Shown here: piece after piece, positions 3,354 through 54,214 of the stretch | How positions within the stretch are numbered: position 1 is the first letter of the stretch | Layout of the letters: each line of letters starts with the position of its first letter | Notes under the pieces: model-generated | The model's database searches: none | Seen by the model: the letters and a program-made list of their open reading frames with translations, nothing else | Told to the model about the DNA's origin: nothing | Assembly: GCA_951406725.2 (NCBI GenBank) | Contig: OX597815.1 | Span: forward strand, 201,438,001-201,502,000 | Reading direction: 5' to 3' | DNA: 64,000 bases | Origin: Octopus vulgaris | Taxonomy: Eukaryota | Translations under genes and position numbers: made by a program

Positions 3354-3572
3354 GCACTTTATTTAAAAGAAGCAGAAATATAACAAAAGCTGTTGCTCAG
3401 AGTTTCGCGCTCTCGTTCGTCGGAGAGTCTTGTTTTAAACGTGAAACTCTGAGTAACAGCTTTTGTTCTACTTGTTATATTTCTGCTTCTTTTAAATAAA
3501 GCATATTACTCTACCTCTGGTATTTGAGTAATCTTTTTTACACCTTTTTTCAATTTTATGTGCTTACTCCGG
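3354..3572. mobile_element. Short palindromic Penelope-like terminal repeat between (TA)n tracts, with decayed hammerhead
   Basis: Inverted arms about 3357-3409 and 3440-3501. Minus strand CCGACGA-acg agag cgc-GAAA-ctctgag-CA-acag. Segment 3517-3572 matches the reverse complement of 24866-24922. Confidence 0.55.
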
Positions 3573-3610
3573 TATATATATATATATATATATATATATA
3601 TATATATATA

Positions 3611-3795
3611 GGGAGAATTCAATACAAAAGAAGACGAAGAATAGTGTAGACAAGAAACAAATGTATTACTATAACGCTCGGGAAGTAAGAAAGTTTTTAA
3701 CATTTCGAGCCTACACTCTTCCACAGAAAGGAACACAGAAAGAAACAAGGTGACAATAAAGAATGTGTAGTGGCTAGCGATCTATCATGGTGAAT
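3611..3795 (-). repeat. Dispersed repeat, probable PLE terminal fragment
   Basis: Aligns with 52591-52785 and abuts (TA)n. Minus strand has a decayed hammerhead-like ctgtgga-a gagt gtag gctc-gaaa-tgt-ta. Confidence 0.5.
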
Positions 3796-4084
3796 ATATA
3801 AATCTTCCGGGTTTGAAACCAGTTCTGTCGCAAGAAGATCTGTTTTTGTCAACTGAAGCAACATTTTGCTCAAGAGTACAACGCGTCAACGTATCCAGGA
3901 GTCTAAACCACAATGTCACTCTCGCGAGTCCGACACCCGGGCTAGTAATTCATTTACCTCTATACAAACACACAAATCTATATATCTATGTGTGTGGGTG
4001 GGTGGGTTGAGATTTTATGTGTCTGTGTCTGTGAAATTATAGTTGTGTATTGGTTTCACATGTTTTATACTGCTTTCACACTGT

Positions 4085-4252
4085 GGCACGAGGCCATCAA
4101 TTTTCGGGGAGGGGATAAGACAGTCACATTAACGCGAGTTATCAACTCGCCCCTGTTTTTATCGACCACGAAAGGAGGAAAGGCAAAGTGTGCCCCGCCG
4201 AAATTTGAACACACATTGTTCGGAAGCAATTAGTCTACCAGCTCACCGCTTA
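4085..4252 (-). mobile_element. SINE family B, old copy
   Basis: tttatcgaccacgaaaggaggaaaggcaaagt..gccgaaatttgaac..ccagctcaccgc. Confidence 0.65.
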
Positions 4253-5099
4253 GATATAATTGAATATTACAACTTCTAACCAACTTTTTTTTTTCTATTA
4301 TGGATTGCTATAGCACTGACACACTACGTATAACGTTGTAAAGCGATAGTCCACTAACCATTCATCTATGAACATAGCAGCCTTGTATCGACACACATGA
4401 ATATTTTTTAATATATTTTCTGAAAATTAGCTTAGTCGTTTGAAAGGACATTTAATTCGACCTCTATTTCTTTATTATTTTTTTTTTCAAATTGATTTGC
4501 TGCTTTGGTGTTTTAATTTATTACTATTTTCGTTTTTGTTTTTGTCGTGTAAATGATGTTTCACTAACTATATTATTACTCAGTTGAGAATTGACTAAAT
4601 GATGTGTATATTTTTTCTTTGATATCTCTATTGTGTGATTACATTTAGAAATGTTGCATTATGTTACATGTGGCATTGATGGAACCGAATGTGGTGTTTG
4701 TCCATGCTATCATTGAATTGTTGCTGTGTGTAGCATATATCCATTTGTGTTTAATGTTTTCTATAGTGTTGTCAGTTCGATTAATAAGGTATTTGTAAAG
4801 CAACTTCCATTTACGAGACAAAGCTTTGGGAATTGGGCAGAATGTTATTTGTTACCTGGTGTTATGACGTAAATGCAGCGTATGCTATGCAGCATGCTTA
4901 GTGCATAGAGAGCAATTTCTACGCTCCAGTTTATCTATTTCCCTTTCATGCACTACCAGCTAATTCCAGTTGTAGTCAATGGAGTGTGCAATGGCTCCAT
5001 AGTCTATGCTCGATATTGGCAAGTATAGACAGCCGAGTTTATTAGAGTAAAAGTAAAGTTATTCGTCGGTTACAATAATGAGTGTTCATATTATTTGAT

Positions 5100-51600: not shown

Positions 51601-52590
51601 CGAACAAATGTTCAAAGGCACTTGGCTGATTATTTATATTTAAGAAAATTACTTCTAGTGCTGTATACCTTTATAAGCGTATAGTCTTATCCGACCCATG
51701 ACGTATCCTAATTTCTCATCGATATATTTTGACCCATTTCCATATTTTCTAAATATATATTTATCATTATAATCAAAATAATTCAACAACGAATAAATTT
51801 GGCTGAAATGAATTCGTATTTATCATTATAATCAAGGATAAATTCTGTATCAGATTTTATCTAGTAGCTGGCATGTAAAAAAACACTTATGTAAAAATTA
51901 ATATAAAGTATTTAATTTTATAAATATAATCATAACATTATAACAAGGGTAACTACTGAGTATTTCCACATGCTAGAAGAAGACGTCAAATGCCTCAAAA
52001 CTACAGGCTGAAAATGAGGAAATGAAGAAAATAATTAAAAGTTTTCTGGTATAGGGATGTTTACTATACTCAGTATGACATAACCGAAAGTACATAATTA
52101 TAAACACCTATACACACCATACGAGAACACCGTATCCACAGTGCAAATGCAAATGTTCTACTTATATACAAGATACATATAGTTCGTTTGAACAAGCCAA
52201 AATAATTCACCAGAGATAAAATTTTGTTTAAGTGAATTCATATTTATCATTATAATCAAAGGTAAAATCTATATACGTAGCAATTTTTCTTCTCCTCCCT
52301 CTCCTTGCTATTTCTTCTTATTCTTCCGCATTTCTCCAGTCAAACTTCAAATTGTTGCTCCATACGCCTCGCAAACCGTGACGTTTAAGCTGTATGTGGA
52401 TTGGTCAAAACCATGTCTCCAAACTTCAGATTTCTGGAGCCTTCTACGAACTACAAAAAGGAAGGCGTCTGTCATTTTACATGTGTCACGAATCTAAAAC
52501 GTCACTAAAATATATTGTGAAATCTGATGATTACAACGCATGAAGGCGCTATTTGAACATTATATATATATATATATATATATATATATA

Positions 52591-52870
52591 GGGGGGGTTC
52601 ACAAAAAAAAAACAAAAGACGAAGACAGTTGGTGTAGACAAACAAATGTATTACTTTAACGCTCGGGAAGTGAAAAAGTCTCTGGCAATTCGAGCCTACG
52701 TTCTTCCGCAGACAGGAACACAGAAAGGAACAAAGAGAGAAAATAAAGATTGTGTAATGGCTAGCGATCTATAATGGCGAATGCCGGACAGAGGGGTCAC
52801 ACAGAGAGGTAGGAAGAAAGGGAGATAATAAAGTAATGGAAATCCCAAAACGAAGGTGCGCGTGCGTGTG
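52591..52870 (-). repeat. Dispersed repeat, second copy of the 3611-3795 family
   Basis: Shares tgtagacaa..acaaatgtattact..aacgctcgggaagt..cgagcctac..ggaacacagaaag..ggctagcgatctat; abuts (TA)n at the equivalent position. Confidence 0.55.
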
Positions 52871-53051
52871 TTAAAGAGACTATGTATGACCGTGTGGAAG
52901 AGGGCTGGTGACCTTCACTTGTGCATATTGTAAATCTAAAAAATGGATTTACAAATTCAATATCCATACATATCTTGCATCTATTTTCTTCCCTCCCCTC
53001 ACACTCTATTTTGTATCACATCTTAACTAACTATGACTTTCATCTCACACC

Positions 53052-53103
53052 GTCTCCGATGAAGGGATATAATTCATAAATATCCTAGAAACAGCTGTAA
53101 GAC
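53052..53103 (+). ncRNA. Minimal type I hammerhead motif, CCGAUGA core variant
   Basis: gtct-CCGATGA-a gggatat aattcataa atatcct a-GAAA-cagctg-TA-agac. Stem I gtct/agac, 7-bp stem II, palindromic ACAGCTGT stem III, GUA triplet. Confidence 0.6.
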
Positions 53104-54214
53104 CTTCTAACTCTAAATGCTCTAATATGTACACAGCCATGGCTTTTTTTATCTTATTACTAAAAAAATCTTTTATATATATATATATATATATATATAT
53201 ATATAGAGAGAGAGAGAGAGAGAGAGAGAAAAAGAGAGAAAGAGAGAGAGAGGGAGAGAGAGAGACGCGAATATATTCAGAGATTGAGAGAAACCTAGGT
53301 GTGGTGAATATTACAGGTATGTAGATATATTTACGCATGTATACATATATGTATTAATATATGCATATCTATACGTATAAGAATATAAATCTCTATGTAT
53401 ATGCGTATGCACATACGTAATTCACCACTTTACCTCACAGCATGAAAATTCACATAATTAAAGGTTAAAATTCATTAGTAATTCATTAAACTTCAAAATT
53501 GTGTTTTCAATCCATGCTGCTTAATTTGATATTTGTCAGTGCTAAAATAAATATAAAAAAATAAATTTTACATTGATAATTCCCCATTCATTAGTGACTT
53601 CACAATCTTACAAAATACTTGCAATGGCCCTAAGTAAAAATGTTTTGTCTCAACTAAAATCATACTTAAATTGTTATCGCTACAGATGATCGTAGTAATT
53701 GTATATTGTTTATGAAATCATAAAATCAAAATTCAGTCTGCAAAAATGGAAGACATGTGGTGTTTATAGGTACATTAATTAATAAGAATCATGCTTGAAA
53801 ATCAATCATCATGCACCATAATCGAACGCAATACATTTGCATTACCTACTTACAAATATATTAATTATGTTTGGATTAGCCGGTATACATTTCAGTAATG
53901 GTTATGCAGGCGAATACGGTTGCTCAGTGGAATGTGTGTCATAGCGCTGATAGTGAGAGTGAATGACGATGGCATCGTTACAATTTTGAGATTACTGTTA
54001 CGCAACGTTTCACATTCTAACTCTTCATAAACAATACATTACATAAAACATAAAGAAACAAATTCATACTTATTTCTCCCGCTCTCACACTCTCTGTCTC
54101 TGTATACACTCACACCCACACAAATGTATATACAGAGAGAGAGAAGGGGGGAGAGAGAATGACAGACAGAGACAGATAGATAGATACATACATATATATA
54201 CACACATATGCATT

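What the first reader, a model, noticed from the sequence alone, without database searches (positions are those of the whole stretch)
3354..53170. Several dissimilar families of short (TA)n-associated repeats each carry a minimal hammerhead ribozyme motif
Seen: hammerhead motifs with very short, mostly self-complementary stem III at 24982-25019(+), 24929-24966(-), 3390-3427(-), 30674-30715(-), 39641-39680(-), 53052-53103(+) and 28688-28739(+), with weaker relics near 3695-3730 and 52678-52712. The host repeats are 140-600 bp, non-coding, abut (TA)n and fall into at least four families with no obvious primary similarity. Established: Penelope-like terminal repeats carry minimal type I hammerheads that can cleave as dimers, and some PLE clades target microsatellites. 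Inference: this genome hosts an abundant, diverse system of ribozyme-bearing non-autonomous PLE derivatives (retrozyme-like) targeting (TA)n. The general class is known; these families may be undescribed.
Basis: partly seen in the sequence, partly recalled or inferred. Interest (0 to 1): 0.72.

Follow-up and report, generated by a model that had tools for sequence, protein, structure and literature searches.

The report
Hammerhead stubs of Penelope-like retrotransposons
The predicted self-cutting RNA motifs are real, but four of the five repeat families are broken-off ends of protein-coding Penelope-like jumping genes (traced for two, likely for two), and only one is a protein-less tandem 'retrozyme'; all are known kinds, and cutting is untested.

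Summary
The type I hammerhead motifs are real and exceed chance, although three of the seven named copies are individually damaged. They fall into five families.

A (24866-25045, 3354-3572) is the terminal repeat of an intact 727-codon Hydra-clade Penelope-like element (PLE). D (39548-39682) is the 3' end of a 775-codon Neptune-type PLE lineage. C and E likely are PLE 3' ends too. Only B (30445-31038) is non-autonomous: a young 363-nt tandem retrozyme whose dimer is predicted to fold into a double hammerhead.

All families end at fixed points next to (TA)n. Where two arms are joined head to head, one carries the PLE 'tail'. In A, 35 of 99 arms stop 11-18 nt upstream of the hammerhead, at an initiator-like site, and none starts at the cut. 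The stubs are therefore likely copies of the uncut RNA's 5' leader. The youngest D subfamily has lost a core base.

PLE hammerheads, Hydra elements in Octopus and mollusc retrozymes are published. This scan noted the same kinds on other DNA of this genome. Cleavage and circular RNA are untested.

The parts
24866..25045 (.). Family A1: head-to-head stub of the terminal repeat (pLTR) of an intact Hydra-clade PLE, inserted in (TA)n. The left arm carries the 71-nt tail and an internal deletion of about 45 nt; the right arm has the short end.
   Evidence: 65 of 65 nt identical to the pLTR of 727-codon elements L363/L364; 4727 exact core matches
24982..25019 (+). A1 hammerhead: C3 at 24986, predicted cut after 25015; 4-bp stem I, 2-bp stem II, palindromic stem III
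   Evidence: stems I and III match the published Hydra-2_Amil hammerhead but for the loop III base (PMC8557442 File S2)
24929..24966 (-). A1 hammerhead on the inverted arm: C3 at 24962, predicted cut after 24933
3354..3572 (.). Family A2: older subfamily of A, head-to-head stub with the tail on the right; 82% identical to the A pLTR
3390..3427 (-). A2 hammerhead (C4 core), damaged in this copy (U16.1 to C, one stem I pair broken); the family form has a 3-bp stem II and UA
3612..3795 (-). Family E stub, an older repeat about 86-90% identical to its best copies; 71% like the 3' end of an RT/GIY-YIG remnant (L302, L057)
3695..3730 (-). E hammerhead variant: U at position 6, extra A before a 4-bp G-C-closed stem II, 3-nt stem III
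28662..28817 (+). Family C stub (second copy), decayed
28688..28739 (+). C hammerhead, damaged (G8 to U; palindrome broken)
30445..31038 (.). Family B: non-LTR retrozyme insertion. One arm is 1.14 units of the 363-nt monomer (sense on minus, 30858-30445, long end at (TA)n). The other arm is inverted, 184 nt (30855-31038), and ends at the short end.
   Evidence: 890 exact core matches
30674..30715 (-). B hammerhead: U3-A8 core (U3 at 30709), G-C-closed 4-bp stem II with CAAUA loop, CGCG stem III, predicted cut between 30680 and 30679, long extended stem I
   Evidence: (z -3.3, 0 of 200 shuffles)
39548..39682 (-). Family D stub: 3' end of a Neptune-type PLE lineage, 98% identical to the end of ORF-linked copy L150
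39641..39680 (-). D hammerhead (U3-A8 core, GCGC stem III, UA); the 5' strand of stem I is cut off by the 5' truncation of this copy
52592..52840 (-). Family E, second copy; hammerhead relic at 52678-52715 with several core changes
52929..53172 (+). Family C stub with a 9-nt inverted piece at its 5' end; likely the 3' end of a Hydra-like PLE
53052..53103 (+). C hammerhead: C4 core (C3 at 53056), 7-bp stem II, CAGCUG stem III, predicted cut after 53099

Best explanation
These repeats are terminal pieces of several Penelope-like retrotransposon (PLE) families, two traced to intact protein-coding elements and two likely so, plus one protein-less 363-nt tandem retrozyme; each carries a predicted, untested hammerhead, and all were likely pasted into (TA)n by PLE enzymes. 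Mechanism, step by step. (1, shown) Intact, young PLEs exist in this genome, carry a hammerhead in their terminal repeat, and have two fixed 3' ends (short, and long with a tail) next to (TA)n. (2, shown) Head-to-head insertions usually have one short and one long end. (3, inferred, in line with the in vitro work on PAc) The GIY-YIG endonuclease nicks both strands of a TA run, and the reverse transcriptase starts at the two internal sites of the RNA, one from each nick. (4, inferred) The RNA starts about 17 nt upstream of the hammerhead. Priming in the 5' copy of the terminal repeat reaches the RNA's 5' end after 85-155 nt and leaves a hammerhead-bearing stub; priming in the 3' copy gives long or full copies. 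(5, shown for A) Copies run through the predicted cut site, so their templates were uncut or rejoined. (6, inferred) B has no 5' boundary and reaches 5.5 units, so it was likely copied round a circular monomer, made when two hammerheads of a tandem transcript cut as a dimer, by a PLE enzyme acting in trans.
For: A: pLTR-ORF-pLTR with period 3352 nt and a 727-codon ORF with RWK, DKT and CxCX5C, the Hydra marks of PMC8557442. D: 28 of 30 GIY-YIG loci have the D motif downstream on the same strand; 775-codon frames with PF00078 and PF01541. C: a GIY-YIG remnant upstream in L296, E 1e-5 against the A protein. E: a related subfamily follows RT/EN remnants in L302 and L057. A second young Neptune-type family (150 of 150 scored matches identical over 237 aa) has its own hammerhead 503 nt after the stop, (TA)n ends and a 32-nt tail. 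A 5' ends in 99 of the first 100 listed places: 35 at -11 to -18, 1 at -19, 3 at -20 to -150, 33 beyond, none at the cut. An initiator-like CCATTCT has its A at -17 (consensus recalled). D: 10 of 30 end at -1 to -18 and none at -19 to -74. B: same-strand neighbours 343-364 nt apart with one exception; 10 of 12 two-armed insertions have one end of each kind; 30 5' ends spread round the unit (Rayleigh p 0.26). Units within an arm differ by 0.007-0.008 against 0.017-0.029 between loci. The double-hammerhead fold is the minimum-energy structure, with trans stem III probability 0.99 in 4 of 4 dimers folded.
Against: No cleavage, transcription start or circular RNA was observed. The C link rests on one short remnant (L296); L297 and L298 gave no hit. 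The window's own E subfamily was not traced to an ORF and is only 71% like the linked one. The wall at -17 could be a stall of the enzyme at RNA structure instead of a start site. The perfect -14/-14 palindromic junction recurs in several loci, as a self-copying hairpin would give. Paired arms are not independent counts. Similar units within a B arm could also come from local duplication. The enzyme that moves B was not identified, and B's ends do not resemble those of the three autonomous families seen. Clades are assigned by motifs, not by a tree; Pfam found nothing in the 727-aa protein.
Confidence: 0.85

Rival explanations
1. All families are non-autonomous, retrozyme-like elements that spread as small ribozyme-processed RNAs.
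For: The window copies are short and non-coding; about two thirds of A arms are stubs; B fits fully.
Against: A and D continue into intact or long PLE ORFs. A, C, D and E show variable 5' truncation, not tandem monomers. No A arm starts at the cut.
Confidence: 0.06
2. The palindromic A stubs are a self-propagating hairpin mini-element, copied as a unit.
For: The same central junctions recur (perfect -14/-14, or a 5-nt loop) in many loci; both arms often share subfamily variants.
Against: Junctions vary widely (+25 to -19) below one wall. The tail sits on either arm. Junction sequences match microhomology joins of the parent's own leader. The 30 alike copies were chosen for likeness to the query.
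Confidence: 0.1
3. The 5' wall is a stall or template-switch point of the reverse transcriptase just after it has passed the hammerhead fold, on a long RNA, not the transcription start.
For: The wall lies just upstream of stem I in both A and D; many ends fall within the motif itself (15 of 99 at +1 to +18).
Against: B has the most stable hammerhead and shows no such cluster (2 of 30 ends in the matching interval, 1.6 expected). The A edge is sharp and sits on an initiator-like site. An internal pLTR promoter is published for Penelope (PMC2377424, passages).
Confidence: 0.2
4. The motifs are chance matches in AT-rich repeats.
For: One AT-rich hit at 46401 was not tied to a repeat; monomer folds of A, C, D and E are no better than shuffles.
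Against: 0 of 300 shuffles reach the window count. The core is kept while stems differ across families, with a C-G to G-C swap in stem I between D subfamilies. A's stems I and III match a published coral Hydra hammerhead.
Confidence: 0.01

Closest known systems
Hydra-clade PLEs (Craig et al. 2021, PMC8557442; Hydra-2_Amil, Hydra-1_Obim)
   Same: Single ORF with RWK, DKT, CxCX5C linker, C-terminal endonuclease without CCHH; hammerhead in the pLTR; (TA)n targets; tail; inverted truncated copies. Family A's stem I, core and stem III equal those of Hydra-2_Amil but for the loop III base. The clade is already recorded in Octopus.
   Different: Family A is 3.35 kb (most published ones are under 3 kb), has thousands of copies, and has a stem II cut down to 2 bp. 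Its hammerhead differs from that listed for Hydra-1_Obim, so it is another family.
Minimal hammerheads of metazoan PLEs (Cervera and de la Pena 2014, PMC4209133)
   Same: Short palindromic helix III; short helix I; U3-A8 variant; many dissimilar families per genome; mostly single copies from truncated PLEs; pairs on opposite strands.
   Different: A1, C, D and the active Neptune-type family have a mismatch where the paper reports a conserved G10.1-C11.1 pair. C4, U6 and C13 variants were not in the parts read.
Neptune-type PLEs (C-terminal GIY-YIG, CX2-5CxxC linker)
   Same: D lineage and the active family F: DKG, C-x4-C-x2-C linker, CCHH-type endonuclease, (TA)n ends, tail.
   Different: Both have a 450-560-codon upstream frame overlapping the RT frame. 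The youngest D subfamily has GCAA for GAAA in the core.
Metazoan non-LTR retrozymes (PMC7229834, mussel 350-390-bp repeats; bioRxiv 10.64898/2026.07.22.740005)
   Same: B: 363-nt tandem unit, one type I hammerhead per unit, 40% GC, no ORF, rod-like fold, short stem III needing a dimer.
   Different: U3-A8 core; PLE-type two-ended, head-to-head insertions in (TA)n; circular RNA not shown here.
PAc Poseidon element in vitro (Frangieh et al. 2024, PMC11167929)
   Same: Two internal start sites defining the tail; both strands cut and extended; uncut RNA as the main template.
   Different: Different clade; there the evidence is biochemical, here it is genomic.

Membership tests
Minimal type I hammerhead of PLEs | Core C3-G8 or U3-A8, G5, A6, A9, GAAA, UH, in type I order | tested here: met
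   A1 29 of 30, B 25 of 29, C 21 of 29 (with C4), D 29 of 30 loci; E has U6 and does not meet it
Minimal type I hammerhead of PLEs | Short self-complementary helix III allowing a dimer | tested here: met
   self-duplex -8.9 to -13.1 kcal/mol for B, A1, C
Minimal type I hammerhead of PLEs | Conserved G10.1-C11.1 pair closing helix II | tested here: not met
   present in B and E; A.A in A1 and C, C.A in D, A-U in A2
Minimal type I hammerhead of PLEs | Self-cleavage as dimer or with protein help | not testable with these tools
   no raw RNA reads were offered
Hydra-clade PLE (family A) | pLTR-ORF-pLTR with one RT-endonuclease ORF | tested here: met
   727 codons, period 3352-3365 nt; RT and endonuclease read from motifs, Pfam gave no hit
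Hydra-clade PLE (family A) | RWK, DKT, CxCX5C linker, no CCHH | tested here: met
   L363; L364 and L367 have one linker Cys changed
Hydra-clade PLE (family A) | Hammerhead in the pLTR, (TA)n targets, optional tail | tested here: met
Hydra-clade PLE (family A) | Placement in the RT tree | not tested
Hydra-clade PLE (family C) | Linked Hydra-type ORF | tested here: inconclusive
   53-residue endonuclease remnant, 36% identical to the A protein, in 1 of 3 long loci
Neptune-type PLE (family D) | RT with DKG, C-terminal GIY-YIG, CX2-5CxxC linker, CCHH | tested here: met
   PF00078 E 4e-10, PF01541 E 9e-6; motifs
Neptune-type PLE (family D) | Hammerhead in the 3' terminal repeat, same strand as the ORF | tested here: met
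   28 of 30 loci
Neptune-type PLE (family D) | Placement in the RT tree (Neptune or Nematis) | not tested
   motifs only
PLE 3' end (family E) | Linked RT/GIY-YIG ORF | tested here: inconclusive
   shown for a 71%-identical subfamily at one place (L057 within L302), not for the window's subfamily
Non-LTR retrozyme (family B) | Tandem 150-450-bp units, a type I hammerhead in each, GC under 50%, no coding capacity | tested here: met
   363 nt, up to 5.5 units, 40% GC, longest ATG frame 38 codons
Non-LTR retrozyme (family B) | No attached autonomous ORF | tested here: met
   49 loci, 110 flanks: no shared unique upstream sequence; three nearby PLE pieces are separate insertions; 890 places exist, so a rare parent is not excluded
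Non-LTR retrozyme (family B) | Abundant linear and circular monomer RNA | not testable with these tools
   contigs only
Non-LTR retrozyme (family B) | Target-site duplication | tested here: inconclusive
   ends lie in (TA)n

The most novel reading that the evidence does not exclude
In this genome the hammerhead is dispensable for the autonomous PLEs but essential for their parasite. The coding elements insert from uncut RNA, leave thousands of 'strong-stop'-like stubs that map their transcription start to the base, and keep expanding after core or stem II damage (C13 in all five intact D frames examined, a 2-bp stem II in A1). The protein-less 363-nt retrozyme keeps a dimer-competent ribozyme and is copied as a rolling circle by the same kind of enzyme.
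Probability: 0.35. Interest if true: 0.6.

Novelty: new member of a known kind. Interest (0 to 1): 0.36.

Why it matters
The function of PLE hammerheads is an open question: PMC8557442 calls it unclear, and PMC11167929 found cleavage unnecessary in vitro. Young, intact Hydra- and Neptune-type families with thousands of copies, next to a young retrozyme in the same targets, give natural material to test whether cutting matters for the element, for the parasite, or for both. For annotation, short hammerhead repeats next to (TA)n should not be filed as retrozymes until their long copies have been followed upstream. The classes themselves are known, so surprise is modest.

Tried and rejected
Rfam: only microsatellite-driven microRNA noise among the 150 matches shown; no hammerhead family listed.

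Expression: no RNA holder listed. Contigs of runs guessed to be RNA cover B and the A element. Contigs show no ends, strand or level, and some continue into flanking DNA, so they were not used as evidence.

It was dropped after position-ordered sampling.

PLE pieces beside A, B and C copies in L009, L026, L035, L063, L085, L202, L292 and L352 are separate insertions and were not counted as parents.

The B inversion in the window begins 1-5 nt upstream of the cut, but 0 of 30 position-ordered ends lie within 8 nt of it (1.4 expected), so it is treated as chance. One further arm was left out because its end could not be placed.

One search used 70 of 100 places and under-samples long copies, and its A2 rows were aligned to an A1 reference; one search is the count relied on. 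In one search, three rows (+30, +35, +18) are internal deletions or duplications, not ends. One fold (L127) was given the wrong stretch and is ignored.

Lunse et al. 2017 on PLE hammerhead variants cleaving as dimers is recalled only; it was not held and may already describe the C4 and position-6 variants. The supplements of the 2026 preprint were not seen.

Literature searches: hammerhead + Penelope + octopus, 5 papers, 4 listed, one relevant; hammerhead ribozyme + cephalopod, 4 papers, 2 listed; Penelope + twin priming + hammerhead, none. No description of these families or of a cephalopod retrozyme was found there, but the library is incomplete and Repbase and Dfam were not searched.
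Full report
Setting. The window lies in a 2.8-Gb assembly of 227 contigs with about 30 large ones. It is AT-rich and full of microsatellites. An octopus is likely, by inference from these features. The window holds no long coding frame of its own.

Observation. The seven motifs and two relics are at the stated places. 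Four are intact as single copies; three are damaged but belong to families with an intact form. A descriptor with stem I of at least 4 bp, stem II of at least 3 bp and a self-complementary stem III gives 3 window hits, against a shuffle mean of 0.01; 0 of 300 shuffles reach 3. The A1 copies fail it because their stem II has 2 bp. In the 408 loci held at that point (1.29 Mb, overlapping, and chosen for these families) it gives 308 hits against 0-1 in five shuffles. These include about a dozen further hammerhead types in the flanks. Own-genome searches sort the repeats into five families without significant mutual similarity. All end at a fixed or narrowly clustered distance from (TA)n.

Family A is a Hydra-clade PLE. 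Its core pattern has 4727 exact matches, some 3.35 kb apart on one strand. Those stretches are pLTR-ORF-pLTR with a 727-codon frame bearing RWK, DKT and CxCX5C and lacking CCHH. These are the marks given for the Hydra clade, which also targets (TA)n and has hammerheads (PMC8557442, passages). The supplement lists Hydra-1_Obim from Octopus, and a coral hammerhead (Hydra-2_Amil) with the same stem I, core and stem III as A1 but for the loop III base. Counting C3 as +1, the predicted cut follows +30, the two 3' ends are +67 and +138, and the ATG is at +158. The window copies are two truncated pLTR arms joined head to head, one with the tail, a layout described for PLEs (PMC8557442 and PMC3846280, passages). 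Such a copy is predicted to fold as one long hairpin that locks both motifs.

Family D is the end of a Neptune-type PLE. Two long copies share a GIY-YIG end upstream. Of 30 loci found with that domain, 28 have the D motif 839-1297 nt downstream on the same strand. Intact 775-codon frames have RT, GIY-YIG, DKG and a C-x4-C-x2-C linker. Between subfamilies, one stem I pair is swapped from C-G to G-C. In 17 of the 28 loci, among them all five intact 775-codon frames examined, the core reads GCAA instead of GAAA.

Families C and E. Long C copies extend more than 1 kb upstream. One of three examined reaches a Hydra-type endonuclease remnant (E 1e-5). An E-related subfamily, 71% identical, follows RT and endonuclease remnants. 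Both links are likely but not complete. A further young Neptune-type family, absent from the window, has 150 of 150 scored matches identical over 237 residues, a hammerhead of the same build 503 nt after its stop, (TA)n ends and a 32-nt tail.

Why the stubs carry the hammerhead. I took the first 100 places of a 24-mer that lies downstream of the predicted cut (4693 places in all) and placed the 5' end of 99. The ends fall as follows: 35 at -11 to -18, 1 at -19, 3 at -20 to -150, 33 beyond, and the rest between -10 and +35. None begins at +31. The edge coincides with an initiator-like CCATTCT whose A is at -17 (consensus recalled). D shows a like cluster: 10 of 30 ends at -1 to -18 and none at -19 to -74. 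The simplest reading is that the RNA begins just upstream of the hammerhead, and that the enzyme, starting at internal sites in the 5' copy of the repeat, runs off the 5' end after 85-155 nt. Internal starts that define the tail, extension of both target strands, and use of uncut RNA were shown in vitro for a Poseidon element (PMC11167929, passages and section 3 part 2). An internal pLTR promoter is published for Penelope (PMC2377424, passages). The start site is inferred; a stall at RNA structure remains possible.

Family B is a retrozyme. The unit is 363 nt, 40% GC, without a frame over 38 codons. The best copies are 98-99% identical, and there are 890 exact cores. Arrays reach 5.5 units, and 10 of 12 two-armed insertions end once at unit position 363 and once near 303. 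The 30 5' ends from 18 position-ordered insertions are spread round the unit, none within 8 nt of the cut. Units in one arm are two to four times more alike than units from different loci (20 loci chosen for multimers). No shared upstream parent appeared in 49 loci. The motif region folds better than all 200 shuffles. Two tandem units fold into a double hammerhead with stem III paired in trans, probability 0.99 in 4 of 4 dimers folded, of 5 loci tried. This fits cutting of a tandem transcript into monomers, closure into a circle, and rolling-circle copying by a PLE enzyme; each of these steps is inferred.

Comparison. Minimal hammerheads in PLE repeats, the U3-A8 variant, many dissimilar families per genome, single copies from truncated PLEs and opposite-strand pairs are in PMC4209133 (parts 1-2 of 4 read). 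Tandem retrozymes of 350-390 bp with circular RNAs are described from mussel (PMC7229834, passages and section 14). Their PLE origin is argued in bioRxiv 10.64898/2026.07.22.740005 (parts 1-2 of 5 read). Searches found no account of these particular families. Earlier notes of this scan report the same kinds elsewhere in this genome, one with the same start-site reading. I had reached that reading before seeing them, and they are not independent support. One note reports copies stopping at the cut in another Hydra family, which I did not find in A.

Verdict. The feature is real and belongs to known classes; the families are probably undescribed. Interest 0.36. What lifts it above routine is genomic evidence that these PLEs insert from uncut RNA and tolerate core damage, while the retrozyme beside them keeps a dimer-ready ribozyme.

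Noticed in passing
L121-L122 (G000:C1:27839000-27856000) and one search places: A very young Neptune-type PLE, at least 150 copies identical over 237 residues, many with an intact 775-codon frame, tandem period 4271 nt, own hammerhead with C4 and a U.U mismatch; a candidate helper for non-autonomous elements.
   Followed up: partly
L300:1775-3445; L121-L122: Both Neptune-type families have a 454-557-codon upstream frame that overlaps the RT frame by about 90 nt in another frame, suggesting a frameshift; not examined.
   Followed up: no
L246-L264: The youngest D subfamily has GCAA for the core GAAA in 17 of 28 loci, including all five intact frames examined.
   Followed up: partly
L033, L038, L152, L258, L302, L400: Further hammerhead families with a 6-bp stem I, mostly a CAAUA-type loop II, and a palindromic stem III, some in tandem or inverted copies: likely other retrozymes.
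   Followed up: no
L250:195-398, L283:1702-1854, L229: Diverged relatives of B (72-80% identical), so the retrozyme lineage is older than its recent burst.
   Followed up: no
L034:1330-1420: The inverted tail of family A2 is joined directly to the 5' end of a family C copy, suggesting that arms from two families met in one insertion.
   Followed up: no
window 10731-11802 (+): Decayed PLE reverse-transcriptase remnant, about 25% identical to the active Neptune-type protein.
   Followed up: no
   Followed up: partly
window 26036-26440 (+): Fragment of a LINE-type reverse transcriptase (weak PF00078 hit, E 0.008).
   Followed up: no
window 2652-3017, 27744-28132, 32935-33379, 43232-43696, 43837-44117: Several copies of an abundant SINE-like repeat made of two oppositely oriented halves around a microsatellite.
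   Followed up: no
window 13047-13258 and 14079-14290: 212-bp inverted repeat pair, 89% identical, about 0.8 kb apart: possibly the ends of a DNA transposon.
   Followed up: no
window 19345-19555 and 36884-37094: 211-bp repeat, 96% identical, ending in (AAT)n: likely the 3' end of another retroelement family.
   Followed up: no
window 30855-30859: The inverted B arm begins 1-5 nt upstream of the predicted cut; not repeated in 30 position-ordered ends.
   Followed up: yes
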